A stretch of DNA of 64,000 nt from a bacterium (GTDB lineage Bacteria; Patescibacteriota; Minisyncoccia; UBA6257; GWB1-50-10), in contig NZBZ01000004.1 in the NCBI GenBank assembly GCA_002686365.1, positions 98,752 through 162,751 on the forward strand, read 5' to 3'. The stretch's first letter is position 1, and every line of letters starts with the position of its first letter. The position numbers and the translations under genes were made by a program. Below are positions 9,721 through 63,527 of the stretch, piece after piece. Below the pieces are notes generated by a model, which was given only the letters and a program-made list of their open reading frames with translations, did no database searches and had not been told where the DNA came from.

Positions 9721-9726
9721 GAAAGA

Positions 9727-9886
9727 TCTCTTTTTCTCGTTCGTAAGTCTCCACACATTAAAATTCTTTATTCGCTCATTACGGCAATTTGCCGCCCTGT
9801 TTCGCTTTGCTCCACGGGCACCCGGCAAATTGTCTATTCGCTCATAGAATTTAAGATGTGTTTCAACACACTCACTCTGAAAAAAA
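9727..9886 (+). repeat. Interspersed repeat family A, copy 1 (~160 bp); other copies at 48329-48485 and 63338-63495
   Basis: The copies are ~95% identical and each starts 1-9 nt after a stop codon (proS, uppS, and the hypothetical gene ending at 63336). The element carries a 12-bp inverted repeat, CGGCAATTTGCCG versus CGGCAAATTGCC, and an internal ATTCGCTCAT direct repeat. No ORF is conserved across the copies. Confidence 0.7.
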
Positions 9887-9957
9887 GTTCTTTCCTAAAG
9901 GGGAAGATGGTTTTTGTAATCTTCTGTGGGGAGGTGGTGGGAGGGCTGTTGGTGGCT

Positions 9958-24734: not shown

Positions 24735-24775
24735 CTTCTAGCTTTTAGCTTATAGCTTCATTAGCTTATAGCTTT
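24724..24775 (+). repeat. Tandem TAGCTTN heptamer repeats (family D), seven units, overlapping the lemA stop codon
   Basis: TTAGCTTCTAGCTTCTAGCTTTTAGCTTATAGCTTCATTAGCTTATAGCTTTT. A 30-nt stretch is identical to the one after rpoD. Confidence 0.55.
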
Positions 24776-24823
24776 TATTTTTAGTAGATAATAGTTACAG
24801 ACTAAAGACTATTAGCCGCGTTA

Positions 24824-26449: not shown

Positions 26450-26517
26450 TGTATTGCGGGGGTGTTTAGTAGGTATGGTTCTTGGCAGTTTTTTGTTATT
26501 TTACTATTTTACGATTT

Positions 26518-26557
26518 ACGATGCAGTTATGTGACGGTCGTGCTATAATTGCATCGT
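26518..26557 (+). promoter_or_regulatory. Hairpin element E (arms ACGATGCA/TGCATCGT, inner ACGGTCGTG) overlapping a TATAAT (26544-26549) and the GTG start of the downstream gene
   Basis: It forms a direct repeat pair with 27085-27124 (~85% identical). The -10-like TATAAT is 6 nt before the start codon, so the transcript is likely leaderless. Confidence 0.4.
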
Positions 26558-27056
26558 GGGTGTTGCAGATGACATTTTAACAATACTTTTTAGCTATTCC
26601 GCTGGGTATAAGCGTCTGCGTCAATTGACGTATGGGGGCTCTCCTTATCAATCGTCAGATTCTCGAAGGAAGATTAGAGATGAAACTCTTCGTTCTACAC
26701 TTTCTCGAATGAGGAAGAATAAGCTTGTGTCCCGCAAGGGGGATGAATGGGTTATCACCGCGAAAGGCAAGGCTTTTTATCGTCGTCGTAGGGAAAAGCG
26801 GAAACTTGAAGAGATTTCTGATGAATTGCGAAGTAGAAAGAAGTCTGTGATTATTGCGTTTGATGTTCCAGAAGAAAGGCGTGTTATTCGCGCATGGTTG
26901 CGGAGAGAATTAGTATTTTTAGGATTTGAGCCTATTCAGAAGAGTGTTTGGTTTGGTCCGGGTCCTTTGCCCGAGATATTTATTCAAGAATTGGGTGATA
27001 GAGATCTTTTGGGCTGTTTAAAATTTTTTAGGGCGACTGAGGATGATGTTGTTTAA
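26556..27056 (+). CDS. Winged-helix + Cas2/PaaX-like domain protein (166 aa), paralog 1
   Basis: The N-terminal wHTH region is ...TLSRMRKNKLVSRKGDEWVITAKGKAF.... The C-terminus VIIAFDVPEERRVIRAWLRRELVFLGFEPIQKSVWFGP matches the Cas2 N-terminal strand pattern (hhhYDI...RR...L...G.R.Q.SVF) and the PaaX middle domain. 57% identity-level paralog at 50061-50546. Confidence 0.5.
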   Translation: MGVADDILTILFSYSAGYKRLRQLTYGGSPYQSSDSRRKIRDETLRSTLSRMRKNKLVSRKGDEWVITAKGKAFYRRRREKRKLEEISDELRSRKKSVIIAFDVPEERRVIRAWLRRELVFLGFEPIQKSVWFGPGPLPEIFIQELGDRDLLGCLKFFRATEDDVV

Positions 27057-27084
27057 ATATTGTTTAGTATTGTTTAGTGATTTT

Positions 27085-27124
27085 ACGATGCACTTTTAGC
27101 ACGACCGTGCTATAGGTGCATCGT
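27085..27124 (+). repeat. Hairpin element E, downstream copy (ACGATGCAC...ACGACCGTG...GTGCATCGT)
   Basis: A 9-bp outer stem plus a 6-bp inner stem. Direct repeat of 26518-26557. Confidence 0.4.
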
Positions 27125-27699
27125 TGGTTGGTTTTTGATTGATAGATTAATGCTTGAGGGTTTTGGGGATTTGCAGATTCGCGGATTTGCGGATTTATCT
27201 CATTGTTTGTATATTGTTTGTACGTTCTTTGACCTATGGAATGGAGAAAATGCGCTATGTCGTTAAGAAAAGGCGTCAGGCGGCAGGTTCGCAAGAGGCG
27301 CGCTTCTAAGGCGCGCAGAGAGGCTCTGGTTAATGAGCAGTTCTTAAGTCTAGTCGGTCGAATTCCAGGAGAAGGAGAATTGGATCGTCTTGCTGCTCAG
27401 ATATAATTCGGAGATGCTCAGCCCTTGTCTGAGGCATTGGGCTTTGTGGGCGCCTATGTGGTGGCAACTGATGATCGTGATGTCTGGGTAAGTGTCCGCT
27501 TTAATAGCGCCACCAGGCAGATCTTCGGTGTGTCGCGGCCGCCCTCTAATGAGCATCTTGACAGCTTGCACAATCTCAGTGCCTGTGGGGAGTCTTCTGG
27601 TTCTGATTGGGTTTCGTCGTAGACGTCCCGCATGCCTTTATGGATGCGGGACGTTGTCATGTTTAGATAATGCTTATAACTTGAGAAGTTTGGATTTTT

Positions 27700-27841: not shown

Positions 27842-27926
27842 GGAGGGATGCCGGAGTGGTCAAACGGAACGGCTTGGAAAGCCGTGGCCCTAACAGGCCC
27901 CGTGGGTTCGAATCCCACTCCCTCCG
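27842..27926 (+). tRNA. tRNA-Ser (anticodon GGA), long variable arm, no encoded CCA
   Basis: Acceptor stem GGAGGGA/TCCCTCC. Anticodon stem-loop ACGGC-TTGGAAA-GCCGT. Long variable arm. T-arm GTGGG-TTCGAAT-CCCAC. Discriminator G. Confidence 0.85.
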
Positions 27927-28014
27927 CAGAATGCTTCTCCAAGAGCCCCCATGGGGCTTATGGAGAAGCATAGTGTTGATGAAGTAGCGGGATTCGAAGG
28001 GTGTTTTTAGAAAG

Positions 28015-28046
28015 CAAACTGCTTTGCTTTCTAAAAAACCCGGGCT
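28015..28046. other. Perfect 14-bp-stem hairpin TTTTAGAAAGCAAA-CTGC-TTTGCTTTCTAAAA
   Basis: Perfect inverted repeat with a 4-nt loop, lying between the tRNA and repeat C. A/T-rich ends suggest a terminator or attachment-site-like element. Confidence 0.4.
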
Positions 28047-28077
28047 CCGAAGGAGGAGCGGAGCATGTGCCAGAGGC

Positions 28078-28200
28078 ACCGCGGAGCGACGGGTGAGGAG
28101 GAATTCCTGCCTACCGGCAGGCAGGTCACTCTTACATTCATTTAGCCATTCAACAATTCCATGGAATTGTTGAATGGGCGGGGGAGCGGGAATCCCACCT
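28078..28200 (+). repeat. Repeat family C, copy 1 (X module GAGCGACGGGTGAGGAGGAAT, 30-bp palindrome CATTCAACAATTCCATGGAATTGTTGAATG, Y module GGGCGGGGGAGCGGGAATCCCACCT)
   Basis: Near-identical copy at 31478-31565. Partial Y-X copy at 49937-49990, and a related hairpin at 33926-33948. Confidence 0.6.
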
Positions 28201-28217
28201 ATGTTAAAATAAATACA

Positions 28218-30593
28218 ATGATGGAATTAACAAAAAATTTTAGAAATTTAAATAAAGATGATGTTTTTTTAGCTGGCGGCAAAGGTGCTTCTCTTGGCGA
28301 GATGACGTATGCAGGAATTCCAGTGCCCCCTGGCTTTGTTGTGTTATCTACTACTTTTGATGAATTTATTAAAAAATCTGATTTGGCTCAAGAGATAGAT
28401 GCTATTTTAGACAAAGTTGATCACAAGGAAGTTCATTTGGTTGAAAATGCTTCAGAAAAAATTCAAGGTTTGATTAAAAATGCGGTGATGCCAGAAAATA
28501 TCGCTAAAGAAATCAAAAAAAAGTTCAAACAATTGAATACTGAGTATGTTGCTGTTCGTTCTTCTGCTACTGCAGAAGATGGTGTTGAAAATGCTTGGGC
28601 TGGACAGCTTGACTCATTTTTAAACACGAAAGACGATAATTTATTGGGAAAGATACAACATTGTTGGGCGTCTCTTTTTACTCCGAGAGCAATATTTTAT
28701 AGATTTGAGAAGGGTTTGCACTCAACCAAAATATCAGTAGCCGTAGTAGTGCAGAAAATGGTCAATTCTGAAATTTCAGGCATTGCTTTTTCTGTCCATC
28801 CAATTACAGAAGATCGAAATCAAATTATTATTGAGTCAGGGTTTGGATTAGGTGAAGCTATTGTGTCGGGACAAATTACACCAGATAGTTATGTGGTAGA
28901 AAAAGAACCGAGAAGAATTATTGATATTAATATTGCTACTCAAAGCAAGGGACTTTATCGTATTACCACTGGTGGTAATGAATGGATTGATATTCCTGAG
29001 CCAAAATCATCGTCTCAGGTTCTTTCTGAAGCTCAGATTTTAGAATTTGCTGATTTGATAATGAAAATCGAAAATCACTATGGCTTCCCCTGTGATATTG
29101 AATGGGCATATGAAGACGGGAAATTTTATATTGTTCAAAGTAGACCGATCACCACTCTCTTGAATGAGAAACATAATGATTTAAACAGGTTTACAAATAA
29201 AAATACATCACTTGAGCATGCGGACGGATTGCCTGTGTATTTTGAAATGACAATGGCAGGATTTACCGATAGATTGAGAAATAATAATTTATCATCGTAC
29301 GAAATTGGAATCAGTCACTTCATGAAAGATGAGCTTGATTACATTTCTCTTATTCAAGATCAGAATAAAATTGGTAGCGCAATTATAAAAGATTTTCTAA
29401 ATAATCCATCGAGTATATACAATCTCTATAAAGAATGGGCGATCGGGTACGAAAAAATGCTTGATCGTTTTAGTGTGGTTTTTGATTACGATTTAAAGAA
29501 ATTTAGTGATAAAAAACTTTTGTCATTATCAGATGATCTTTACTCTTTTTATCGCGAAGAGGTGTCAATGCCCGGTTTTACTGATGGCTTTATGTTCTAT
29601 GCCGAGAAGCGCTTGAACGATTTAATAATGGAATATTGCGATATTAATAAATTAAAGAATTTTACAGAAATATTCACAACGCTTACAGCTTCTACTGAAC
29701 CATCATTCTTTAACGAAAAAGAGTCTGATTTAAGTCATGTTTCGGATACAGAGTCAAAAAATAATTTATTAAAAAAATATGCGTGGTTAAATTCAAGTTA
29801 TTCAGGCTATAAACCATATTCAAAGAAAAATCTTGAGGATGACTTAAAAGATGTTAAAGACCCAGCTTTGGCGAAAAAACAATTGTCTGACAATAAATTA
29901 GCAAAGCAGGATTTAATAAAGAAGCATAAATTTAATGATGAGATATTGGCAATAGTTAAGCTAACTGATTTATTTATTAAATGGCAAGATCAAAGAAAGG
30001 TCTACACTCTTTCGTATGCAGTATTGCGAAGCAGGATATTGCATGAAATTGCTCAGCGTTTTAAGTTTGATATAAAACTTCTTGAATTTGCATTAACAGA
30101 AGAACTTCCACTAGTTTTAAATAGAAGTCTCAGTATCGATGTTTTAAAAAATCGTAGAGATAGTGGAGTGTTATTTATTCATAAAAATGGAAAATTGCAG
30201 GAAATTATAGTTGGCGAGGCGTCTGAATCTTTTGTTGCCAAATTGCAGGCTCCAGAAAATAGTGGGGCTTCTGAAATTTCAGGAACAATTGCCTCAAGAG
30301 GTAAAGTTACTGGAAAAGTTAGAATAGTTATGACTGCAAAAAATATAAACGAGGTTGAGGAAGGCGAAATTTTGGTTGCTCCAATGACTAGACCCGAACA
30401 CTTAATAGGCATGAAAAAAGCCGCGGCGATTGTTACTGATGATGGCGGAATCACATGTCATGCGGCAATTGTTTCTCGAGAGCTTGGCAAACCTTGTATT
30501 ATTGGAACAAAGAATGCCACTAAGATTTTAAAAAATGGCGATTTGGTTGAGGTTGACGCGGAAAATGGCGTAGTGAAAATTATTAAGAAGTAA
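28218..30593 (+). CDS. PEP-utilising phosphotransferase, PEP-synthase-like N-terminus and C-terminal phospho-His swivel domain but no PEP-binding TIM barrel (rifampin-phosphotransferase-like architecture)
   Basis: N-terminus: LAGGKGASLGEMTYAGIPVPPGF and VAVRSSATAEDGVENAWAGQLDSF (PPDK_N ATP-grasp). C-terminus: DDGGITCHAAIVSRELGKPCIIGT (PEP-utilisers mobile His domain). The ORF ends immediately after it. The ATG at 28218 is preferred because the track's start at 28161 lies inside repeat C. The gene is noticeably AT-rich. Confidence 0.65.
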   Translation: MMELTKNFRNLNKDDVFLAGGKGASLGEMTYAGIPVPPGFVVLSTTFDEFIKKSDLAQEIDAILDKVDHKEVHLVENASEKIQGLIKNAVMPENIAKEIKKKFKQLNTEYVAVRSSATAEDGVENAWAGQLDSFLNTKDDNLLGKIQHCWASLFTPRAIFYRFEKGLHSTKISVAVVVQKMVNSEISGIAFSVHPITEDRNQIIIESGFGLGEAIVSGQITPDSYVVEKEPRRIIDINIATQSKGLYRITTGGNEWIDIPEPKSSSQVLSEAQILEFADLIMKIENHYGFPCDIEWAYEDGKFYIVQSRPITTLLNEKHNDLNRFTNKNTSLEHADGLPVYFEMTMAGFTDRLRNNNLSSYEIGISHFMKDELDYISLIQDQNKIGSAIIKDFLNNPSSIYNLYKEWAIGYEKMLDRFSVVFDYDLKKFSDKKLLSLSDDLYSFYREEVSMPGFTDGFMFYAEKRLNDLIMEYCDINKLKNFTEIFTTLTASTEPSFFNEKESDLSHVSDTESKNNLLKKYAWLNSSYSGYKPYSKKNLEDDLKDVKDPALAKKQLSDNKLAKQDLIKKHKFNDEILAIVKLTDLFIKWQDQRKVYTLSYAVLRSRILHEIAQRFKFDIKLLEFALTEELPLVLNRSLSIDVLKNRRDSGVLFIHKNGKLQEIIVGEASESFVAKLQAPENSGASEISGTIASRGKVTGKVRIVMTAKNINEVEEGEILVAPMTRPEHLIGMKKAAAIVTDDGGITCHAAIVSRELGKPCIIGTKNATKILKNGDLVEVDAENGVVKIIKK

Positions 30594-30599
30594 TTAAAT

Positions 30600-31427
30600 A
30601 TGCGTGGAGAAGATTTTTTTACAAGACATTCAACCAAACCAAAGGATGAAGATCCAGAATCCTCGGAATTTTCCGGCATTTCTGAAAAAGGGGTTGAACT
30701 TGCAAAAGAGAGAGCAGGAGAAATTTTAGCGAATTTAGAGAAACAAGAAAATGGAACTGTGATGTTAATTAGTGGTGTTTCGGAAATGCCGAGAACAAAA
30801 TCAACGGCCATGATTTATGGTCAGGAAATTAAAAATATAATAGAACTGCAAAAAATAGATGATGTGCTTGTTTTTTTGCCAGAGGATTTAGGGAATATTG
30901 ATGGATATACAAATAAAGTTAATTTTTTGATTGAACAAATTAAAGCAAATCCAAACAAAAAAATAGTATTGGATTTCCCGTTGTTTATTAAAGAACTTTC
31001 TTTCAAAGATAGATGGGCAGATGAAGAAGGAAATTTATCAGAATATACGAAACAATTATTAGAACGAAACAGTGACGATGACGAGGAAGCGATGAAGGAT
31101 TGGTTTGATAATCAAGGCAGAATTGATGATTTAATTGGTCCAAATCCAACTGAAGTTGCGGAGCAGCAATTGGCTGGAATTGAAAGATTAAGAGAGTTTG
31201 CCAAAAAATATATTTCAGACAGGCCATTAGTCATTGGTTCGGTTGGACATAGTTGGAGTTTAGACGCAGTTGCTGTTTATCTGGCAAACAACGGAGAAAT
31301 AAACAAAGAATCGTTTGAGAAAATGAAAGCTAAAATGATTGGAGAAACAAAAATGATTAAACTATCGGAACGAGATGGAAAACAAGTTTTGGAGTATGGA
31401 GATCTTGTAATTCCTTTAGAAAAATAA
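30600..31427 (+). CDS. Hypothetical protein (275 aa), possibly a degenerate histidine-phosphatase (SixA/PGM-like) fold
   Basis: The C-terminal PLVIGSVGHSWSLDAVAVYL resembles the second His motif of the histidine-phosphatase superfamily. The N-terminal RHG motif is replaced (VMLISGVSEMPRTKS). It is 6 nt downstream of the phosphotransferase gene. Confidence 0.4.
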   Translation: MRGEDFFTRHSTKPKDEDPESSEFSGISEKGVELAKERAGEILANLEKQENGTVMLISGVSEMPRTKSTAMIYGQEIKNIIELQKIDDVLVFLPEDLGNIDGYTNKVNFLIEQIKANPNKKIVLDFPLFIKELSFKDRWADEEGNLSEYTKQLLERNSDDDEEAMKDWFDNQGRIDDLIGPNPTEVAEQQLAGIERLREFAKKYISDRPLVIGSVGHSWSLDAVAVYLANNGEINKESFEKMKAKMIGETKMIKLSERDGKQVLEYGDLVIPLEK

Positions 31428-31477
31428 GACAGCGCGTCAATGAAATTGGTACAGCTACATTATTCGTAGGAGCGACG

Positions 31478-31565
31478 GGTGAGGAGGAATCCCACTCCTA
31501 CATTCATTTAGTCATTCAACAATTCCATGGAATTGTTGAATGGGCGGGTGAGCGGGAATCCCACC
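31478..31565 (+). repeat. Repeat family C, copy 2 (same X, palindrome and Y modules)
   Basis: ...GGAGCGACGGGTGAGGAGGAATCCCACTCCTACATTCATTTAGTCATTCAACAATTCCATGGAATTGTTGAATGGGCGGGTGAGCGGGAATCCCACCT... Confidence 0.6.
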
Positions 31566-31594
31566 TCCTCTAGCTAGCCTTAGGTGGGTTTTAT

Positions 31595-31789
31595 ATGAAA
31601 ATTTTTACAAGGACAACAATTAATATTATATCGGTAATTGGTATTACTTTTGTTTCGATTCTTATACAAATGGCAGATAGTAGGTTAACGTCTCATCAAA
31701 ATGAAATTATTATCAAACAAGGTTCTATTAACCAAACGCTGATTGAGCAGGCGGAGATATCTCGCGATTTGTATGACTTGTATGAATAG
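31595..31789 (+). CDS. Small membrane-anchored hypothetical protein (64 aa)
   Basis: An N-terminal TM helix (TINIISVIGITFVSILIQ). AT-rich. Confidence 0.25.
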   Translation: MKIFTRTTINIISVIGITFVSILIQMADSRLTSHQNEIIIKQGSINQTLIEQAEISRDLYDLYE

Positions 31790-32121
31790 CATGGTGATGC
31801 CACATCTCAACCGATTAAGCTGTTTTTAGAAGGTAGAATTGGGAATCAAAGAAGAAGTTATTTTGAATTTGTCTCAAGTACTGATGAATTGATAATAGGG
31901 CGAGATGAATTGAAGGGCGAGACCCCGCATTTTCTTGGATTCAATGCCGAGACAATAAAGAGCGTCTTGTATGTTGTTCAGTTTTTTACGATTATTCTTT
32001 TAATTATTTCACAAAACTGGACTAACAAAAAAGAAGATCATGTCTAAAAAACAAGGTGTTTGAGGATTCTTGTTTTAATAAAACAAGCTTGGCACGCGGA
32101 TTATAAGAGATAAACCCTCCC

Positions 32122-32793
32122 ATGAAAAACCGTTACGAAAATAAGTTAAAAAAATATAACGCGCAAATACTTAATTTGTATCCTGCGCATTTCATTTCAA
32201 GGCTTATTCTTGCTCTTGAAATGAAAAAAATTGAGAAAGAGGGCTTAATCGTATTAGAAATAGGTTGTGGCGAGGGGGATTCGGCAATGCCGATTTTGGA
32301 AAACACTAATCTGCATTTGGATTTGTCTGATGTTTCAGAAGAAATGATTGAGGAGTGCAAATCCAAGTTGAGTTCTTACAAAGACCGTATTAATTATATC
32401 TGCGAAGATGGTTTATCGTATTTACAAAATTGTAAGCCCTACGACATTATATTTTCAGAATGGGTAATTCATAATTTTACTTGGGATGAAAAAAAAGATC
32501 TGTTTAGCGCGATTTACAACAAATTGAATCAGGGAGGATCCTTTTTTCTTATGGATAAAATTTATCCAGCTGAAGGCGCAAAAGAAATGTTTGATACGCA
32601 GATGAAGAGATTTGAATATTTAGAGACTGAAGCAAAAGAAGGAATAGTGAAATACGAAACTCAAGATTGCCTTCCTGAGTTTAAGATGGATGAAAAAAAT
32701 ACAATGGAGGGTCTGAAAGATGCAGGATTCAATGATGTTGTCATTGTTGATAGATTAGAAAGAGATGTGGTTTTAATAGCTAAGAAAGAATAA
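32122..32793 (+). CDS. Class I SAM-dependent methyltransferase
   Basis: Motif I VLEIGCGEGDSAMPILE, followed by the acidic loop and DIIFSEWVIHNF (motif IV region). Confidence 0.6.
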   Translation: MKNRYENKLKKYNAQILNLYPAHFISRLILALEMKKIEKEGLIVLEIGCGEGDSAMPILENTNLHLDLSDVSEEMIEECKSKLSSYKDRINYICEDGLSYLQNCKPYDIIFSEWVIHNFTWDEKKDLFSAIYNKLNQGGSFFLMDKIYPAEGAKEMFDTQMKRFEYLETEAKEGIVKYETQDCLPEFKMDEKNTMEGLKDAGFNDVVIVDRLERDVVLIAKKE

Positions 32794-32826
32794 GTCGTGC
32801 GAGAAAAATCTCATTAAATTTATTGT

Positions 32827-33396
32827 ATGACTAAGATTATACTTCACGGTGGGTTTACTAGTGAGGATAATGAGCTAAATAGGGGATATTATCGTGAAAT
32901 AACCAAAGACTTGAAAGATGGAGCAACTGTTCTGGCGGTTTTATTTGCCAGAGAGAAAGAGGAACATTCAAAACTATTTCAAGATGAAATACAAAAACTT
33001 ACTGCAAGCATAGATAAGCATTTGGATATAGTTCAGGCCTCAGAAGATAAATTTATCAATCAGGTTAAAGAAGCTGATGTGATAGTAATTAGGGGAGGTG
33101 ATACATCTAAGTTAATTAAGACATTTAAACAGTATCCAGACTTTATGGAATCGGCCAGAGATAAGGTGATAGGTGGTTCCTCTGCGGGAGCGTATTTGTT
33201 TTCTAAATATTATCACTCGGCTAGCAAGGGCAAGGTATTTGAGGGATTAGGGATTTTACCTATACGTATTGTTTGTCATCACAACAGCAAGGAGTTCAAG
33301 GTGAAGAAAAGCGCTGTTGAGCAACTAGAAAAATATCCTAATGATTTAGAATTAGTTATTCTCAAAGACTACGAATGGCGAGTGTTTGAGATATAA
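32827..33396 (+). CDS. Peptidase S51-like (dipeptidase E / cyanophycinase family) protein
   Basis: VIVIRGGDTSKLIKTF and VIGGSSAGAYLFS (G-x-S-A-G nucleophile elbow). Confidence 0.45.
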   Translation: MTKIILHGGFTSEDNELNRGYYREITKDLKDGATVLAVLFAREKEEHSKLFQDEIQKLTASIDKHLDIVQASEDKFINQVKEADVIVIRGGDTSKLIKTFKQYPDFMESARDKVIGGSSAGAYLFSKYYHSASKGKVFEGLGILPIRIVCHHNSKEFKVKKSAVEQLEKYPNDLELVILKDYEWRVFEI

Positions 33397-33443
33397 ATCT
33401 TTTTTATCTTGAAACGTATTTGTTACGAATATATCATGGAGAT

Positions 33444-33839: not shown

Positions 33840-33982
33840 GGCCTATTGGTAGACAGGCCATTTATGTTTATGACCACAATCAATTACGACGAATTTGAAA
33901 AAGTAGATATTCGTTTGGAAAAATAGATTAGGGGAGTGGAATTCCCACTCCCCTCTGAGCGCTTCTCCTTTGTATTGGGTCG

Positions 33983-47607: not shown

Positions 47608-48327
47608 TTGAAATGGATAAATAATATGGAAAATGTTCCACAACATGTTGCTGCTATCCCTGATGGGAATAGGCGGTGGGCAAAGAAGCGGGGCCTTCCC
47701 GGTACTGCTGGCCATACAGAAGGGGTAAAGCGTTTTTATGATGTAATGGAGGAGGCGTTTGATAAGGGCGTCAAGTACTTTACGTTTTGGGGCGCATCAG
47801 AGAGTAATCTTACCAATCGTACAAAGGTAGAGGTGAAATTTTTGATGGATATTTTTCAAAATGAGATTTTGCGGCATTTTGATTCAAAGAAGTTTAAGGA
47901 GAATAAGATTCGGGTTCGGGTTCGCGGCAAGGGTGTGGAAATGATTGATAATCCAAAGCTTACTGAGACTGTGAAAAAGCTTGAGGAGGAGTCTGCGGAG
48001 TTTACAGATAAGAACTTAACAATTCTTTTTGGATATAGCGGGACTACAGAGATACGTGAGGCGATTTCTAAAATAAAGGAAGAGGATTTGGAAGTTACTG
48101 ATGAGAATATAAAGAAGTCTTTGTGGACTGGGGATTTGCCGCCAGTAGATTTTGTGATAAGAACTGGAATAGAAGGAGATCCTCATGTTTCTGCTGGATT
48201 TATGATGTGGCAGACAGCAGAGAGTCAGCTTTACTTTACAGAAATGTGCTGGCCTGATTTTGGAAAGAAGGAGCTTGCAAAGGTTTTGGAAGAGTATGGG
48301 GCAAGGGAGAGGAGGTTGGGGAAATAA
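47608..48327 (+). CDS. uppS: Undecaprenyl-diphosphate synthase
   Basis: HVAAIPDGNRRWAKKRGLP... is the canonical cis-prenyltransferase motif. Confidence 0.85.
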   Translation: MKWINNMENVPQHVAAIPDGNRRWAKKRGLPGTAGHTEGVKRFYDVMEEAFDKGVKYFTFWGASESNLTNRTKVEVKFLMDIFQNEILRHFDSKKFKENKIRVRVRGKGVEMIDNPKLTETVKKLEEESAEFTDKNLTILFGYSGTTEIREAISKIKEEDLEVTDENIKKSLWTGDLPPVDFVIRTGIEGDPHVSAGFMMWQTAESQLYFTEMCWPDFGKKELAKVLEEYGARERRLGK

Positions 48328-48328
48328 A

Positions 48329-48485
48329 ATCCTTTTTCTCGTTCGTAAGTCTCCACACATTAAAATTCTTTATTTGCTCATTACGGCAATTTGCCGCCCT
48401 GTTTCGCTTTGCTCCACGGGCACCCGGCAAATTGCCTATTCGCTCATAGAATTTAAGATGTGTTTCAACACACTCACTCTGAAAA
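48329..48485 (+). repeat. Interspersed repeat family A, copy 2
   Basis: Starts 2 nt after the uppS TAA; ~95% identical to copies 1 and 3. Confidence 0.7.
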
Positions 48486-48619
48486 ATAATTTTATTTTTC
48501 TATGGGAAGTCGTTCTAGGTGCTTTTTACAAAGTAACTTTTTTAAGTCGTCTCAAGAAAGAAAAGATGAATTGTGAGTAATAGAATTTTTCCTCATTCTG
48601 TAGTGGGATGGAGGAGGTC

Positions 48620-49784: not shown

Positions 49785-49855
49785 CGGGCCGTAGTATACC
49801 GGTAGTACGCCTGTTTTGGGAACAGGTAGACCGGGTTCGATTCCCGGCGGCCCGA
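49785..49855 (+). tRNA. tRNA-Pro (anticodon UGG)
   Basis: Acceptor stem CGGGCCG/CGGCCCG. D-arm GTAT-ACCGGTA-GTAC. Anticodon stem-loop CCTGT-TTTGGGA-ACAGG. T-arm CCGGG-TTCGATT-CCCGG. Discriminator A. Confidence 0.8.
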
Positions 49856-49865
49856 CTAAGGTATC

Positions 49866-49894
49866 AAAAGGAGCTCTCATGAGCTCCTTTTGAG
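49866..49894 (+). terminator. Terminator hairpin AAGGAGCTC-TCAT-GAGCTCCTT plus TTTT
   Basis: 9-bp stem followed by a U-run, directly after tRNA-Pro. Confidence 0.5.
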
Positions 49895-50019
49895 ACTCTA
49901 TGTGGTCGGGAATCGAAGGGAACCCCGACATTTATCGTCGGGGTGGGGGAGCGGGATTCCCGGCCTCCTATTGAGCGACGTGAGATTCCCCGGCCCGACA
50001 GCGATTTTTATAGATTTTT

Positions 50020-50054
50020 ATAACATTTCCTACGATCGTAGGAAATGTTATAAT
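50020..50054 (+). promoter_or_regulatory. 32-bp perfect palindrome ATAACATTTCCTACGA|TCGTAGGAAATGTTAT overlapping a TATAAT (50049-50054) 6 nt before the start codon: candidate autoregulated, leaderless promoter-operator
   Basis: Perfect 16-bp arms with the same ACGATCGT core as hairpins 26518, 27085 and 50556. Confidence 0.45.
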
Positions 50055-50060
50055 TTGTGT

Positions 50061-50546
50061 ATGGCTTTTAATAATGATTTGCTTACAGTTCTTTTTCGCA
50101 ACACGATGAGCTATAAACTGCTTAGGGAGTTTGCGCATAAACGTCGTCAAAAAGAAGTAAAGGATTCGGTTTTGCGAACAACTCTCTATCGTTTACGAAA
50201 ACAGGGCTTGGTTGTTCAAAAAGATGGAAAGTGGAGCATAACAAATCTAGGTAAGGACTTTTTGAAACGTAAGGAAAAGGCAAAGATTTGGGAGCATGGT
50301 TTGTACGACAAGTCTTTACGTGAGCGTGACAAGAATATGATTATTGCTTTTGATATTCCAGAATCTGAAAGGAGAAAACGGGATTGGTTAAGAGTTGAGC
50401 TGCGTCTTCTTGGCTTTGATCCTATTCAGAAGAGTGTTTGGTTTGGTCCATATCCGTTGCCTCGAGAGTTTATTCAGTCTTTGGGTAAATTGGAGCTTAT
50501 TACGTACTTGAAGTTTTTTCGTGCTCGGAAAGATGAGGTTGTTTGA
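50061..50546 (+). CDS. Winged-helix + Cas2/PaaX-like domain protein (161 aa), paralog 2
   Basis: MAFNNDLLTVLF...TLYRLRKQGLVVQKDGKWSITNLGKDF...MIIAFDIPESERRKRDWLRVELRLLGFDPIQKSVWFGPYPLP. It aligns end to end with 26556-27056. The ATG at 50061 is preferred; the track's 49890 start runs through repeat sequence. Confidence 0.5.
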   Translation: MAFNNDLLTVLFRNTMSYKLLREFAHKRRQKEVKDSVLRTTLYRLRKQGLVVQKDGKWSITNLGKDFLKRKEKAKIWEHGLYDKSLRERDKNMIIAFDIPESERRKRDWLRVELRLLGFDPIQKSVWFGPYPLPREFIQSLGKLELITYLKFFRARKDEVV

Positions 50547-57873: not shown

Positions 57874-57915
57874 CGTTAGCTTTTAGCTTATAGCTTCATT
57901 AGCTTTTAGGTTTTC
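57874..57915 (+). repeat. Tandem TAGCTTN heptamers (family D) directly after the rpoD stop
   Basis: CGTTAGCTTTTAGCTTATAGCTTCATTAGCTTTTAG shares a 30-nt identical stretch with 24740-24770. A B-family fragment follows (GCGATACTCAAAGACGAAAAGGA). Confidence 0.55.
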
Positions 57916-58076: not shown

Positions 58077-59402
58077 ATGAGATATCTTTCTTTTCTGGTT
58101 TTTGGCTTTATTTTTTTTGGCCTTGTAATTGGAGCGCGAGTTATAGGGGATAATCCGGGAGGCCGGGCTCTTTTAACTGAGCCAAAGATTTCCAGAACAA
58201 GAACAATGCCGGGAAGTTCTTTGTACTTTTTTAAGGAGTTTCGTAGGAGCATTGATCAGGCGCTTTCATTTGGAAGTCTTTCAAAAATTCGAAATCGGCT
58301 AGATGTTCTTGATGAGCGCCTTGGCGAGCTGCATGAGCTTTTAGTGCATCGTGAGGCTTCTCCAGATGAGTTTTTGAGTGTTTCAGGGGAGTATCAGAAT
58401 GATTTAGATTATATTCGTTCGAAGATTGGCGCGTCTGAAGAACGCGCTTTGGATTTTTCAGATGAGTTTTTGGAGAGGACTTTTTATCATTTCCAGATTT
58501 TTGAGAAGCTTCGATGGGAAGTTCCTGAATTTCGTTCTGATGTAGTTTTTTTGGAGGAGAAGATGCTTGAGACAGCGGCATTTGTTTTTGGTATAGCAGG
58601 GGATGGGGCAGAGGTTGATACTGATATATTTGAAAAAAACTCTCTTCCTGGGCTTCAGTTTCTTCAGAAATTTGCTGATTTTTTGCCGGCAGCAATTTCT
58701 CGCGCGCGTGTTTCCGCGGCCAAGCAGGAAATTGTTTCCATTCTTCGGGGATACTACTTAGCTAACGAACTTTCTCCTACCAGCCTTGTTGGATTTTTAA
58801 TAGATGAGGCGAATGGTGATTTTATTTCTCGCGTGAGGGCTGTAGATGTTTTGCGGGAGGGTTTTCAGGATGAGGAGATGAAGAATCAGCTTGTATTTTT
58901 GCGGCAGAAGATGTTTGAGGAAGTTGATGCGTCTTTGTTTTTTGAGGATGGAGTGATTGATGATGAGATTGAGCGTCTTTCTTCTTTTATTTCTGAGCTT
59001 AGGGAAAATGATGCTGATTTGAGTGAGGATCTGCAGGAGAAGTTAGAGAAGGCGGAGTTTACTTATGATAGATCTCTTGAGTTTTATTCTTCAGGGCTTT
59101 ATGATCGGGTGTTTAGCCAGCTTTCTCTTACTTCTGTAACTTTGGATTCTTTGCTTTTGGATGTTTCTCTTCCTTCTGCTTTTTTTGAACACTCTGTAAA
59201 TTCTTTGAAGAATGAGTTTGAGTCGTTGAAGGGTAAGATTGACGGCAATGGAGAGGATGGTGTTATTTCGGAATTTTTTCATGAGGCAGAGGAGAATATC
59301 GCGGAACTTTTGGTTTCTATAGGACAGGAAGTTTCTTTTGACTTTCGTCTTATTTCTAGAACCAAGTCTATTTTGGTGGCGTTGAGGGAGGCGCTTCGTT
59401 AG
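58077..59402 (+). CDS. Hypothetical membrane-anchored helical protein
   Basis: An N-terminal TM segment; Glu/Leu/Phe-rich and predicted helical; no motif. Confidence 0.45.
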   Translation: MRYLSFLVFGFIFFGLVIGARVIGDNPGGRALLTEPKISRTRTMPGSSLYFFKEFRRSIDQALSFGSLSKIRNRLDVLDERLGELHELLVHREASPDEFLSVSGEYQNDLDYIRSKIGASEERALDFSDEFLERTFYHFQIFEKLRWEVPEFRSDVVFLEEKMLETAAFVFGIAGDGAEVDTDIFEKNSLPGLQFLQKFADFLPAAISRARVSAAKQEIVSILRGYYLANELSPTSLVGFLIDEANGDFISRVRAVDVLREGFQDEEMKNQLVFLRQKMFEEVDASLFFEDGVIDDEIERLSSFISELRENDADLSEDLQEKLEKAEFTYDRSLEFYSSGLYDRVFSQLSLTSVTLDSLLLDVSLPSAFFEHSVNSLKNEFESLKGKIDGNGEDGVISEFFHEAEENIAELLVSIGQEVSFDFRLISRTKSILVALREALR

Positions 59403-59459
59403 CTTATAGCTTCGTTAGCTTTCAGCTTCGTTAGCTTCTGGAGCTTCCGGAGCTTTTTT
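59393..59459 (+). repeat. Family D repeat variant (GCTTCGTTAGCTTATA x3, then GCTTC(T/C)GGAGCTT) overlapping the stop codon
   Basis: GCTTCGTTAGCTTATAGCTTCGTTAGCTTTCAGCTTCGTTAGCTTCTGGAGCTTCCGGAGCTTTTTT. Confidence 0.5.
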
Positions 59460-61608: not shown

Positions 61609-63336
61609 ATGGCGAAAGCAGGTTCAACAAAGAAGCTTTTTTTGGAGGCAGAGGATGATATAGATGAAGCATTGGAGAGGATTTCCGCGTTTGAAGGGAA
61701 GAATGTTGTTTTGAATATTCCAAAGGGTTCTGTGCTCGGAGGTTCTGTTAAGAACTTCCGTTTTTTGCGTAAGAAGACGGATGAGCTTGAGAAGAATTTG
61801 GTTATTGAGTCTGTTGATGATCATGTGCTTGAGCTTGCAGAGGTTGCTGATATTGATGCTGTAAATCCCGTGTTTCGTACAAAAGGCAAGGCAGTTGTTG
61901 ATATTGTTCCGGGCGGTTCTGGAGAGTCTCGTTCAGGGCGCAGTAAAAAGACTGAGAAAATATCTCTTCAGCAAGTAAAAGAAGAGGAGGTTGAAGAGGA
62001 AGAGGGTGAAGAAGAGCCTGACGCAGAGCCAGAGGAGAAAGCAGAGGATGTGGTTCAGGATGAGATTCCGCAAAAGGTAGTTCATTTTTGGGAGAGAGAT
62101 CGTGCAGCAAAGGCGCCTCAGCCCGCGAAGATGGGTTTTCTTTCGTTTTTGCAGAGAGGTAAGAAGTCGAAGGGCGGCATTCAGCTTCCTTCTGCGCGTT
62201 TTGTCCGGTTTGCTGTAGTTTTTCTTGTGATTATTGCTTTAGGTTGGGGACTTGCGACAATTCTTCCTAAGGCAACTATTACACTTGCGCTTAAGCGATA
62301 CCCAGTATCTTTTGTTGAGACGGTGAAGGTTGATACAAAGACTCCTCTGCCAAGCTTTGCCGGAGAGACGGTCTTTTTACCCGGAGAGCTTCTTACTGCA
62401 GTAAAAAATCTTGAGATGAGTTTTCCTGCTACTGGAGAGGATGAGGTAGAGCGGAAAGCAACAGGGAAGATTAAAATTTTTAATGAGTTTAGTTCAAAAT
62501 CTCAGGCTTTGGTTGCGCGTACTAGATTTGAGACGCCGGATGGGCTTGTATACCGATTGTTTGAGCAGGTCACTGTGCCTGGGGCAGATGTTGTAGAAGG
62601 GGAGATAGAGGCATCATCTATTGAGGTTGAGGTATATGCTGATGAAGCAGGAGAGGAGTATAACATTGGGCCGGTTCCGAAGTTTACTATTCCCGGATTT
62701 AAGGGAGGACCTCGGTACGATGGATTTTATGCCGCGTCCGTCGGGTCCATGAAGGGAGGATTTGTAGGAGTTCAGAGAGTTCCAACAGATGCGGACTTAG
62801 AGGTGGCTACAGAGACAATTACGGACAGCTTGCTTGATTCTCTTGAGGGAGAGCTTGCTATTTTAATGAGTGACAGCTTTAAAGTTTTTGATGACACAAC
62901 ATTGTTTCAGATAGTTCGGGAGGAGGTTTATCCGCCTTCCCCCGGAGAGGAGATGTTTAGCGTATTTGTTGAGGGGCAGCTTCAGCAGTTTGTGTTTCGG
63001 GAGGATGATTTGGAGGAGGCTCTTGTTGGCCGCGCTAAGGAGAGTTTAACAGAGGATGTGAGTTTTAATGTTGATGATTTTTCCGTGGAGTTTACAGACC
63101 TTTCAGTTGATTTGTCAGCTGAACGTTTACAGTTTGGAGTTGAGGGAGAGGCTGTGTTTATCGCGGACATTGATTCTTCTGGGCTTACAGCAGAGCTTTT
63201 AGGTAAGAGTTCTGAAGATGTGAAAAAGGAGATTTTTAAACTTCCTGGGCTTGATAGGGCACGTGTGTCGCTTTGGCCATTCTGGGTAAAGAAGGTTCCT
63301 GGGAAAGAAGGGAAGGTGACGATTGAGGTAGAATAA
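61609..63336 (+). CDS. Hypothetical membrane protein with a poly-Glu acidic segment
   Basis: EEEVEEEEGEEEPDAEPEEKAED, then the TM segment FVRFAVVFLVIIALGWGLATIL, then a large C-terminal domain. Confidence 0.45.
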   Translation: MAKAGSTKKLFLEAEDDIDEALERISAFEGKNVVLNIPKGSVLGGSVKNFRFLRKKTDELEKNLVIESVDDHVLELAEVADIDAVNPVFRTKGKAVVDIVPGGSGESRSGRSKKTEKISLQQVKEEEVEEEEGEEEPDAEPEEKAEDVVQDEIPQKVVHFWERDRAAKAPQPAKMGFLSFLQRGKKSKGGIQLPSARFVRFAVVFLVIIALGWGLATILPKATITLALKRYPVSFVETVKVDTKTPLPSFAGETVFLPGELLTAVKNLEMSFPATGEDEVERKATGKIKIFNEFSSKSQALVARTRFETPDGLVYRLFEQVTVPGADVVEGEIEASSIEVEVYADEAGEEYNIGPVPKFTIPGFKGGPRYDGFYAASVGSMKGGFVGVQRVPTDADLEVATETITDSLLDSLEGELAILMSDSFKVFDDTTLFQIVREEVYPPSPGEEMFSVFVEGQLQQFVFREDDLEEALVGRAKESLTEDVSFNVDDFSVEFTDLSVDLSAERLQFGVEGEAVFIADIDSSGLTAELLGKSSEDVKKEIFKLPGLDRARVSLWPFWVKKVPGKEGKVTIEVE

Positions 63337-63337
63337 A

Positions 63338-63495
63338 CTCCTTTTTCTCGTTCGTAAGTCTCCACACATTAAAATTCTTTATTCACTCATTACGGCAATT
63401 TGCCGCCCTGTTTCGCTTTGCTTCACGGGCACCCGGCAAATTGCCTATTCGCTCATAGAATTTAAGATGTGCTCCAACACACTCACTCTGAAAAA
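63338..63495 (+). repeat. Interspersed repeat family A, copy 3
   Basis: Starts 2 nt after the TAA at 63334-63336. Confidence 0.7.
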
Positions 63496-63527
63496 GGAGT
63501 TTATTCTTATGGGTTTATGGGAGGTCT

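What the first reader, a model, noticed from the sequence alone, without database searches (positions are those of the whole stretch)
28078..31565. AT-rich islet next to tRNA-Ser: Rph-like PEP-utilising phosphotransferase + degenerate His-phosphatase-like gene, bracketed by ~100-bp direct repeats containing a 30-bp palindrome
Repeat C (X module, CATTCAACAATTCCATGGAATTGTTGAATG palindrome, Y module) occurs in direct orientation at 28078-28200 and 31478-31565, flanking two co-directional genes. Gene 1 (28218-30593) has a PEP-synthase-type ATP-grasp N-terminus and a C-terminal phospho-His swivel domain (GGITCHAAIVSRELGKPCIIGT) but no PEP/pyruvate-binding barrel. That domain order is the one seen in rifampin phosphotransferases and related antibiotic- or small-molecule-kinases. 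Gene 2 (30600-31427) has a C-terminal motif like the second catalytic His motif of SixA/PGM-type histidine phosphatases but lacks the N-terminal RHG. Taken together this looks like a horizontally acquired phospho-His relay or resistance-like module. It is unexpected in a reduced genome and may be mobile via the flanking repeats.
Basis: partly seen in the sequence, partly recalled or inferred. Interest (0 to 1): 0.7.

Follow-up and report, generated by a model that had tools for sequence, protein, structure and literature searches.

The report
Transferred dikinase–phosphatase cassette between palindrome repeats
A tiny-genome (CPR) bacterium has recently acquired a two-gene unit, a rifampin-phosphotransferase-like kinase and an intact but unannotated histidine phosphatase, that sits between two copies of a repeat built round a palindrome found scattered through many such genomes; both gene types are common there, not exceptional.

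Summary

Window 28205-31428 is 90% identical in DNA to contigs from other samples. A flanking host gene has no relative above 50% protein identity. The pair is therefore a recently transferred cassette.

Such dikinases are abundant in CPR and DPANN genomes, so "unexpected in a reduced genome" is wrong.

The palindrome core recurs at about 70 intergenic sites in other CPR and DPANN assemblies and often flanks a small ArsR-family gene. It is more likely a protein-bound operator or hairpin element than a mobility site. Substrate and mobility mechanism remain unknown.

The parts
27842..27927 (+). tRNA-Ser(GGA). Its 3' T-arm and acceptor sequence GAATCCCACTCC recurs in the repeat modules.
   Evidence: ARAGORN; Rfam tRNA 57.6 bits; 9-mer count.
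27928..28082 (.). GC-rich, hairpin-rich spacer. It contains an inverted tRNA T-arm-like fragment (27981-27998) and a terminator-like perfect hairpin (28004-28037).
   Evidence: Inverted repeats I3, I17 and I18; terminator-like sites.
28083..28201 (+). Repeat copy A. It consists of the X module (28083-28107 plus a 20-nt hairpin insertion found only in this copy), a spacer, the palindrome and the Y module (28178-28201).
   Evidence: no X or Y module in any other genome fetched.
28146..28177 (.). Perfect 32-bp palindrome A, CCATTCAACAATTCCATGGAATTGTTGAATGG. The 26-bp core is shared with about 70 sites in other CPR and DPANN assemblies.
28205..31428 (+). Horizontally transferred two-gene cassette. 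It is 90% identical in DNA to L013, L014 and L015; gene 1 alone is 84% identical to L010.
   Evidence: blastn; 34.0% GC.
28218..30593 (+). Gene 1, an RPH-architecture small-molecule dikinase of 790-791 aa. By homology the start is probably the ATG at 28221. It has an ATP-grasp domain (18-320), a helical central domain (about 330-680) and a swivel domain with T746-C747-H748.
   Evidence: Pfam; NCBIfam; AF2 model pLDDT 84; Foldseek top hit RPH 5hv1, E = 6e-41; profile matches RPH as one stretch, 3-792.
30600..31427 (+). Gene 2, a 275-aa member of a histidine-phosphatase superfamily branch with no Pfam model. The catalytic residues are R9, H10, R65 and H217.
31469..31567 (+). Repeat copy B. It consists of the X module (31469-31498), a spacer, the palindrome and the Y module (31544-31567). 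It is followed by a CCCACCT...AGGTGGG hairpin and TTTTAT (31560-31592).
   Evidence: the sequence itself.
31513..31542 (.). Perfect 30-bp palindrome B.
31595..33396 (+). Second AT-rich segment (34.6% GC). It holds orf64 (31595-31789, one TM helix), a SAM-dependent methyltransferase (32122-32793) and an S51 peptidase (32827-33396). This segment is not found next to the gene pair in relatives.

Best explanation
A 3.2-kb two-gene operon (28205-31428) has recently been transferred into a 5.2-kb AT-rich islet beside tRNA-Ser in a marine Patescibacteria (CPR) genome.

Gene 1 is a single-chain small-molecule dikinase built like rifampin phosphotransferase. The ATP-grasp domain passes the beta-phosphate of ATP to His748 on the C-terminal swivel domain. 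The swivel domain then carries it to a substrate held by the helical central domain. The substrate is unknown. This mechanism is inferred from the family, not shown here.

Gene 2 is a catalytically intact, previously unannotated branch of the histidine-phosphatase superfamily. It is the obligate neighbour of 'central + swivel' proteins in CPR genomes. It most likely removes the phosphate again, either from the phosphorylated product or a later intermediate (my preference, about 45%) or from the swivel domain's phospho-His or phospho-Thr (about 35%).

The flanking repeats are two copies of a genome-specific composite built round a 26-34-bp perfect palindrome. That palindrome is a dispersed intergenic element of CPR and DPANN genomes and is linked to a small ArsR-family winged-helix gene. 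It is therefore most likely a protein-bound operator or hairpin element. The local duplication probably marks the recombination joint at which the cassette entered. It is not shown to be a device that moves the cassette.
For: Architecture. PPDK_N plus PEP-utilizers and no PEP-utilizers_C. The central region is helical. The best full-length structural match is RPH, E = 6e-41, against 1e-12 for PPDK. The family profile aligns to RPH in one stretch, 3-792 against 4-866, but to true PEP synthases only at the N-terminus. [quoted passage not shown]

Linkage. Every gene 2 homologue context examined has a swivel-domain gene within one or two genes, directly upstream in most: L002, L003, L004/5, L006, L007, L008/9, L013-15, L082 and L083. 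Partners without an ATP-grasp domain still share the central and swivel regions with gene 1.

Transfer. 90% nucleotide identity over exactly 28205-31428; a host flank gene reaches at most 50% amino-acid identity to anything else; composition is deviant.

Palindrome. 11 genome contigs and 55 metagenome contigs carry the core. An ArsR-family gene (PF01022) lies 22-62 nt from it in 11 of 66 loci and is flanked by two copies in 6 contigs. At those sites the right arm supplies a TTGAAT-type -35 hexamer 17-18 nt upstream of TATAGT or TATCAT (sequence).
Against: The substrate is unknown and no activity has been measured.

Gene 1 at 85% identity in Parcubacteria GW2011_GWA2_45_14 is paired with an APH-like kinase instead of gene 2. 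The pairing is therefore not obligatory from gene 1's side.

No ArsR-like gene lies in the 64-kb window.

In the window the Y module occupies the position where a -10 hexamer would be, so the promoter-overlap model seen elsewhere does not transfer directly.

Genes beside other palindrome sites are unrelated housekeeping genes, and the palindromy extends a further 4.4 bp on average with covarying sequence. Both fit a structural hairpin element better than a classical operator.

The claim of recent transfer rests on one host gene for comparison.
Confidence: 0.6

Rival explanations
1. Phospho-His relay or regulator. Gene 2 acts on gene 1 itself rather than on a small molecule. It would strip or exchange phosphate on the swivel His748, as SixA does on phospho-His carriers, or on the neighbouring Thr746, as the PPDK/PEPS regulatory proteins do. 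This would gate the dikinase.
Against: The closest structural matches are small-molecule phosphatases: RosC, PhoE and phosphoserine phosphatase. At 275 aa, gene 2 is much larger than SixA (131-135 residues aligned). A constitutive phospho-His phosphatase would turn the kinase into an ATPase. No interaction has been tested.
Confidence: 0.3
2. The repeats are site-specific recombination sites, so the cassette is an excisable module. The site could be the 12-6-12 palindrome acting as a tyrosine-recombinase core (dif, lox or attC-like), or the tRNA-like GAATCCCAC cores acting as att remnants. Recombination between the direct copies would release a 3.37-kb circle.
For: The repeats sit at the edges of the transferred segment: copy A ends 3-4 nt before the homology with L013 starts, and copy B starts 41 nt after it ends. 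The arms ATTCAAC and GTTGAAT fit the integron core patterns RYYYAAC and GTTRRRY (sequence; the pattern is recalled from memory). The 12-mer GAATCCCACTCC is shared with the 3' end of tRNA-Ser. Relatives also hold the cassette between repeats: inverted repeats of at least 145 nt in L013-15, three direct copies beside a tyrosine recombinase in L002, and direct repeats in L010. The Tara contig L086 ends inside repeat B.
Against: No recombinase lies in the window. There is no third copy at the islet's end near 33397. The palindrome is perfect and symmetric, so it gives no directionality and has no extrahelical bases. About 70 other sites lie beside ordinary genes, and none lies beside gene 1 or gene 2 homologues. 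The repeats in relatives are unrelated in sequence. A contig break at a repeat is expected from assembly alone.
Confidence: 0.2
3. The palindrome is a REP-like structural or RNA element, such as a hairpin for mRNA 3'-end formation, mRNA stability or DNA structure. The ArsR-like protein would be its associated binding protein, rather than the palindrome being a gene-specific operator.
For: In 61 unique sites the palindromy extends 4.4 bp on average beyond the conserved 24-mer, against about 0.33 expected, with variable sequence. The first flanking position is T.A at 39 sites and C.G at 18, with only 4 non-complementary sites. Sites lie both 5' and 3' of genes and between convergent genes. Neighbouring genes have no common function. 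The layout of a small gene flanked by two palindromes mirrors REP/RAYT.
Against: No U-tract follows the hairpin. At the ArsR loci the arm coincides with a -35 hexamer at correct spacing from a -10 hexamer. The associated protein is a dsDNA-binding winged helix, not a transposase.
Confidence: 0.3
4. Gene 1 is a true rifamycin-inactivating phosphotransferase, and the pair is an antibiotic-resistance module.
For: Gene 1 has the same three-domain order as RPH-Lm and matches it best over its full length. CPR genomes have been reported to carry rph-like hits (PMC8651080).
Against: The NCBIfam RPH equivalog scores are 337.6 against a cut-off of 999, and 241.9 against 1700. Identity to RPH-Lm is only about 22%. 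Central-domain similarity is detectable only with a profile. Thousands of paralogues have different central domains, some fused to Epimerase_2. RPH needs no phosphatase partner.
Confidence: 0.05
5. Gene 1 is an ordinary PEP synthase or PPDK of central metabolism.
For: The highest NCBIfam bit scores are to PEP synthase models. Public annotations call relatives 'phosphoenolpyruvate synthase'.
Against: Those matches cover only residues 3-337. TIGR01418 scores 431 against a cut-off of 739.75. There is no PEP-utilizers_C domain. The swivel domain is C-terminal and the protein ends at residue 791. The predicted central region (about 380-650) is mainly helical, not a beta/alpha barrel.
Confidence: 0.02

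Closest known systems
Rifampin phosphotransferase RPH-Lm (PDB 5hv1, 5fbs) and the wider small-molecule dikinase family
   Same: Same order of domains: ATP-grasp, helical substrate-binding domain, C-terminal His swivel domain. It is the best full-length structural and profile match. The T-x-H phospho-carrier motif is conserved.
   Different: About 22% identity. It scores far below the RPH equivalog cut-offs. The central domain is shorter (791 against 867 aa), so the substrate is probably different. It has a dedicated phosphatase partner and a CPR host.
Two-component phenolic dikinases HpeHI, CreHI and PpsAB (PMC12167813)
   Same: They belong to the same family. The ATP-grasp subunit HpeI (PDB 9goj) matches gene 1's N-terminus, E = 1e-25. 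In those pathways the phosphate is removed again later. Relatives of the window locus have 'central + swivel' proteins without an ATP-grasp domain.
   Different: The window protein is fused. No carboxylase or oxidase genes accompany it. CPR bacteria are not known to catabolise aromatics.
Histidine-phosphatase superfamily branch 1 (RosC, PhoE, PspA phosphoserine phosphatase, CobC, SixA)
   Different: 10-20% identity. The window protein has no Pfam hit. It carries about 70-100 extra residues. Its gene is always linked to swivel-domain proteins.
ArsR/SmtB repressors and their inverted-repeat operators
   Same: A small (88-91 aa) PF01022 winged-helix gene has the palindrome 32-43 nt upstream of its start in the two-copy contigs, overlapping a -35-like hexamer.
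   Different: The protein has no Cys or metal-site motifs in the sequences seen. A second palindrome lies downstream of the gene. Dozens of further sites lie beside unrelated genes. The palindromy is extended by covarying bases.
REP elements with their RAYT genes
   Same: Short palindromes are dispersed in intergenic DNA, and the associated gene is flanked by two copies.
   Different: The associated protein is a winged-helix DNA binder, not a Y1 transposase. There are few copies per genome. The same core sequence is shared across very distant lineages.
tRNA-adjacent genomic islands, integron cassettes and pdif modules
   Same: The locus lies next to a tRNA, has deviant composition, has repeats at the cassette edges and contains tRNA 3'-like fragments.
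   Different: No integrase is present. No repeat lies at the distal end of the islet. The palindrome is perfect and symmetric. Genomic islands are common in Patescibacteria (PMC12455944).

Membership tests
Rifamycin-inactivating phosphotransferase (RPH) | Three domains in the order ATP-grasp, central substrate-binding domain, C-terminal His swivel domain | tested here: met
   Pfam; Foldseek 5hv1 E = 6e-41 over the full length; the profile aligns 3-792 to 4-866 of RPH.
Rifamycin-inactivating phosphotransferase (RPH) | Score above the curated equivalog cut-off (NF041857: 999; NF000283: 1700) | tested here: not met
   337.6 and 241.9 bits.
Rifamycin-inactivating phosphotransferase (RPH) | Binds and phosphorylates rifamycins | not testable with these tools
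   Needs an enzyme assay or a resistance test.
PEP synthase / PPDK | C-terminal PEP/pyruvate-binding TIM barrel (PF02896) after a central swivel domain | tested here: not met
   No PF02896 hit. The swivel domain is at 714-784 and the protein ends at 791. The central region is helical.
PEP synthase / PPDK | Score above the TIGR01418 or NF005057 cut-off | tested here: not met
   431 against 739.75 and 455 against 598; only the N-terminus is matched.
Histidine-phosphatase superfamily | The characteristic alpha/beta fold | tested here: met
Histidine-phosphatase superfamily | N-terminal Arg-His-Gly-type motif carrying the nucleophilic His, plus a second Arg and a second His | tested here: met
   R9-H10-S11 conserved in at least 90% of members; R65 and H217 invariant in 45 sequences. 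Placement in the active site is inferred, because no structural alignment was printed.
Histidine-phosphatase superfamily | Pfam PF00300 match above threshold | tested here: not met
   No hit for the window protein even at E <= 10. 2 of 45 relatives hit, best E = 2.5e-4.
SixA-type phospho-histidine phosphatase | Minimal (~160 aa) histidine-phosphatase domain acting on phospho-His carrier proteins | tested here: inconclusive
ArsR-family operator | Inverted repeat next to, and overlapping the promoter of, the regulator gene | tested here: met
   Met in other genomes: the ArsR-family gene lies 22-62 nt from the palindrome in 11 of 66 loci, 6 contigs have two flanking copies, and there is overlap with a -35 hexamer.
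ArsR-family operator | Cognate regulator encoded in this genome | tested here: inconclusive
   No tblastn hit in the 64-kb window. The rest of the genome was not available.
Integron cassette / attC | IntI integrase and attI nearby, with an attC after each cassette | tested here: not met
   No tyrosine recombinase in the window. Only two copies are present and none lies after the second AT-rich segment.
Integron cassette / attC | Imperfect hairpin with extrahelical bases and RYYYAAC...GTTRRRY cores | tested here: inconclusive
   The cores fit (ATTCAAC and GTTGAAT), but the hairpin is perfect and symmetric. The defining pattern is recalled from memory.
tRNA-integrated genomic island | Integrase gene, and a direct repeat of the tRNA 3' end at the far border | tested here: not met
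   No integrase. tRNA-like cores lie at 28190, 31487 and 31556, but none at the 33397 border.
REP/RAYT | Dispersed palindromes plus a Y1-transposase-like gene flanked by them | tested here: not met
   The palindromes are dispersed, but the flanked gene is an ArsR-type winged helix.

The most novel reading that the evidence does not exclude
The perfectly conserved 26-34-bp palindrome and its small ArsR-type winged-helix gene form an undescribed dispersed-palindrome system. It is shared by CPR bacteria and by assemblies labelled as DPANN archaea. Its layout resembles REP/RAYT, but the partner is a DNA-binding protein rather than a transposase. Copies of it would mark or create the joints at which gene cassettes such as this dikinase-phosphatase pair are exchanged between ultra-small genomes.

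A second, independent novel reading: the gene 2 family is a dedicated phospho-His partner of swivel domains, which would make a His-to-His relay.
Probability: 0.2. Interest if true: 0.75.

Novelty: new variant of a known kind. Interest (0 to 1): 0.5.

Why it matters
Genes annotated as 'PEP synthase' are among the few apparent metabolic genes kept by the most reduced CPR and DPANN genomes, and their role there is an acknowledged puzzle. This locus shows that at least one abundant class of them is an RPH-type small-molecule dikinase and not a PEP synthase. It also shows that this class travels with a conserved, catalytically intact histidine phosphatase that no domain library recognises. That gives a concrete two-protein system to express and assay.

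The palindrome and ArsR-gene association is a candidate regulatory or structural DNA element shared across very distant ultra-small organisms, and I found no description of it in the papers searched. The islet itself is ordinary: genomic islands are common in Patescibacteria.

Tried and rejected
Searches that found nothing for the repeats or for gene 2:
- Rfam at a permissive threshold gave nothing for the repeats; a RAGATH-33 hit at 24.9 bits against a 120-bit threshold is noise.
- PADLOC gave no defence-system hit for gene 1 or gene 2. The methyltransferase hits mad2 only through its generic MTase domain.
- Sequence-only searches of gene 2 against PDB, with a single sequence and with a profile, found nothing meaningful.
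- Longer members of the gene 2 family (up to 696 aa) carry no Pfam domain that could serve as a fusion clue.
- tblastn with a tyrosine recombinase and with ArsR-like proteins found nothing in the window.
- The palindrome is absent from the viral collection and from the papers searched.
- The X and Y modules are absent from all 86 loci fetched except those from the source population.

Regulon idea. Genes next to other palindrome sites are unrelated housekeeping genes, so I dropped the idea of a specific stress or resistance regulon.

Empty-site test. The nearest relatives of a flanking host gene are only 50% identical. All three assemblies of the source population carry the cassette. No empty site could therefore be examined.

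Promoter scan. The number of sigma-70-like sites in the islet equals the shuffle expectation, 20 against 20.3. No promoter is claimed for gene 1.

Procedural. I re-ran it with alignment A3.

Full report
OBSERVATION

The sequence shows tRNA-Ser(GGA) at 27842-27927. It is followed by a GC-rich, hairpin-rich spacer and then two direct copies of a composite repeat. Copy A spans 28083-28201 and copy B spans 31469-31567. They differ at 4 of 98 shared positions, and copy A has an extra 20-nt hairpin (TCCTGCCTACCGGCAGGCAGG).

Each copy consists of an X module, a 13-nt spacer, a perfect 30-32-bp palindrome and a Y module. The palindrome occurs exactly twice in the window, against none in 100 shuffles. 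X and Y resemble each other (GGGTGAGnGGGAATCCCAC) and share GAATCCCAC with the tRNA-Ser T-arm. In copy B's X module the shared stretch is GAATCCCACTCC. That 9-mer occurs 4 times in the window against 0.53 expected. As single strands the copies fold into long hairpins, z = -2.7 to -4.0.

Segment 28205-31428 is 34.0% GC and 31595-33396 is 34.6% GC, both with positive AT skew. The flanks are 43-44% GC with negative AT skew. The tetranucleotide deviation here is the largest in the window, z = 3.2-3.4. The repeats themselves are 48-55% GC.

GENE 1

Pfam finds PPDK_N at residues 18-320 (E = 2e-96) and the PEP-utilizers swivel domain at 714-784 (E = 9e-27). It finds nothing in between and no PEP-utilizers_C. 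NCBIfam PEP-synthase models match only residues 3-337 and fall below their cut-offs. The RPH equivalog scores 338 against 999.

An AlphaFold model built with 22 homologues (pLDDT 84) gives a mainly helical central region, about residues 380-650. Its best PDB matches are the Listeria rifampin phosphotransferase structures over the full length, E = 6e-41. PPDK reaches only E = 1e-12, and PEP synthase matches only the N-terminal domain. A family profile aligns to RPH as one stretch, 3-792 against 4-866.

Gene 1 therefore works like RPH. It has the architecture of the small-molecule dikinase family described in PMC12167813, but it fails the membership test for RPH proper. It is not a PEP synthase.

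The family is very large in Patescibacteria. A 2026 preprint reports 'PEP synthase (K01007)' in nearly all ultra-reduced Nanobdellota and calls its role unresolved. Rph-like hits in CPR have also been noted. I infer, but did not test, that many of those annotations are proteins of this kind.

GENE 2

Pfam, NCBIfam, PADLOC and PDB sequence searches give nothing for gene 2. Even so it has 116 homologues down to 36% identity and 264 cluster representatives in 1.84 billion proteins.

The protein looks catalytically intact.

LINKAGE OF THE TWO GENES

I examined eleven independent contexts of gene 2 homologues. In every one, a gene whose product ends in a swivel domain lies directly upstream or one gene away.

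| Locus | Swivel-domain gene(s) next to the gene 2 homologue |
|---|---|
| L002, L003 | 829 or 844 aa |
| L004, L005 | 683 aa, plus an extra 326-aa swivel protein |
| L006 | 662 aa and 383 aa |
| L007 | 1520 aa with Epimerase_2, then an HD protein |
| L008, L009 | arrays of five to seven swivel proteins |
| L013, L014, L015 | 790 aa |
| L082 | 487 aa |
| L083 | 490 aa and 407 aa |

Partners that lack the ATP-grasp domain still align with gene 1's central and swivel regions, at 33-41% identity. This parallels the two-component dikinases.

The linkage is looser from gene 1's side. The 85%-identical gene 1 of Parcubacteria GW2011_GWA2_45_14 is followed by an APH-like kinase and a hydrolase instead of gene 2.

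What is shown is a conserved dikinase or swivel-protein plus histidine-phosphatase gene pair. What is inferred is that the phosphatase reverses the phosphorylation. It could act on the product or a later intermediate, as in the Hpe and Cre pathways where the phosphate is removed downstream. Alternatively it could act on the swivel domain's phospho-His or phospho-Thr, since the swivel domain is the only constant feature of the partners and SixA-type enzymes share the fold.

HORIZONTAL TRANSFER

Window 28205-31428 aligns at 90% nucleotide identity over 3224 nt with three contigs from other samples (L013-L015). Gene 1 alone aligns at 84% with the Rifle groundwater Parcubacteria contig. The homology starts 3-4 nt after repeat A and stops one base after gene 2's stop codon.

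By contrast the flanking Exo_endo_phos gene has no relative above 50% amino-acid identity among 5.8 billion proteins. Together with the composition, this supports recent acquisition of the pair. The comparison rests on one host gene.

The second AT-rich segment (orf64, methyltransferase, S51 peptidase) is not associated with the pair elsewhere.

No empty site could be found. All assemblies of the source population (TARA_037 mesopelagic) carry the cassette, and one Tara contig ends inside repeat B, as expected at a repeat.

WHAT THE REPEATS ARE

The X and Y modules are unique to this genome. The 24-26-bp palindrome core is not. It occurs in 11 contigs of 7 other species-representative genomes: Patescibacteria including Saccharibacteria and Paceibacterota, two 'bacterium' MAGs, and one MAG labelled Nanoarchaeota. 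It also occurs in 55 metagenome contigs, mostly groundwater. It is absent from viral contigs and from the literature searched. Flanks differ completely between sites.

In 11 of 66 loci an 88-91-aa ArsR-family gene (PF01022) lies 22-62 nt from the palindrome. In six contigs two palindromes 357-416 nt apart (about 357 nt in four) bracket that gene. At those sites the right arm provides TTGAAT, TTGAAA or TTGAGT 17-18 nt upstream of TATAGT or TATCAT. The palindrome therefore overlaps the -35 region of the regulator's promoter (sequence).

Three observations complicate a simple operator reading.
- Other sites lie beside unrelated housekeeping genes, and some lie between convergent genes.
- Across 61 unique sites the palindromy continues 4.4 bp on average beyond the conserved core, with covarying sequence. 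The first flanking position is T.A at 39 sites and C.G at 18. This suggests selection for a hairpin, or a copying mechanism that produces perfect palindromes.
- In the window the Y module occupies the -10 position, and no ArsR-like gene or recombinase is present in the 64 kb.

My reading is that the palindrome is a dispersed, protein-recognised element. An operator of an ArsR-type regulator is the most likely role, and a REP-like structural hairpin is a serious rival. The roughly 100-nt duplication round the cassette is a local event tied to its insertion, for example homologous recombination of a circular intermediate carrying the same element.

A role as an active recombination site cannot be excluded. 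The cassette is also bracketed by unrelated repeats in relatives: perfect inverted repeats of at least 145 nt in L013-15, three direct copies next to a tyrosine recombinase in L002, and direct repeats in L010. The X and Y modules look like remnants of the tRNA 3' end.

VERDICT

The finding is real and was read partly correctly. It is a new variant of known kinds: an RPH-family dikinase and a histidine phosphatase on a small genomic islet, in a lineage where both islets and such dikinases are common. The less ordinary parts are the tight, previously unannotated dikinase-phosphatase pairing and the cross-lineage palindrome linked to an ArsR-family gene. Interest is moderate.

Noticed in passing
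window 26515-27128: The PaaX-like winged-helix gene (26556-27056) is flanked on both sides by a 40-47-nt element of the form ACGATGCA-N24-TGCATCGT. The two copies are 79% identical and are the only two in the window. The upstream copy contains TGCTATAAT just before the GTG start. This is the same 'regulator between two palindromes' layout seen for the ArsR-like gene in other genomes.
   Followed up: partly
window 49785-50546: A paralogue of the PaaX-like gene (49890-50546) lies directly after tRNA-Pro. It shares a 55-nt stretch at 85% identity with the copy upstream of tRNA-Ser (26917-26971 against 50407-50461).
   Followed up: no
window 9721-9897, 48323-48499, 63332-63508: Three copies of a 177-nt direct repeat, 92-94% identical, are spread over 54 kb. 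Their nature is unknown.
   Followed up: no
window 24739-24799, 57877-57914, 59377-59430: Short TAGCTT(A/T)TAGCTT-type repeat clusters lie in intergenic DNA at three places.
   Followed up: no
window 27975-28000: An inverted tRNA T-arm-like fragment (reverse complement TTCGAATCCCGCTACTTC) lies just downstream of tRNA-Ser. With the X and Y modules, this suggests repeated recombination at this tRNA.
   Followed up: partly
L013 285-429 and 3963-4107; also L014, L015: In the closest relatives, an XRE-type HTH gene plus gene 1 and gene 2 are bracketed by perfect inverted repeats of at least 145 nt. The contigs end at the repeat, which suggests an invertible or composite element.
   Followed up: partly
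L002 4399-4590, 8821-9047, 11464-11689: Three direct copies of a ~90-210-nt repeat containing a 16-bp hairpin separate successive gene groups, one of which is the dikinase-phosphatase pair. They lie next to a tyrosine recombinase and a restriction-modification system.
   Followed up: no
L008 1360-10766; L009 476-9431: Arrays of five to seven paralogous genes whose products end in a PEP-utilizers swivel domain (164-688 aa) surround one gene 2 homologue. No ATP-grasp domain is on record in these loci.
   Followed up: partly
L007 802-5364: A 1520-aa protein combines PPDK_N, an Epimerase_2-like region (faint hit) and a swivel domain. It is followed by an HD-domain protein and a gene 2 homologue. 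This hints at sugar-nucleotide-type substrates for some family members.
   Followed up: no
window 32827-33396; L017, L018 1169-1828, L019 2222-2977, L042: S51-type peptidase genes lie within a few kb of the palindrome in the window and in at least four other loci. In L018 the gene is directly adjacent. This may be coincidence.
   Followed up: no
window 33931-33954: A palindrome GGGGAGTGGAATTCCCACTCCCC lies between the convergent genes orf139 and Exo_endo_phos. It resembles the X and Y modules (3 mismatches) and is probably a terminator hairpin.
   Followed up: no
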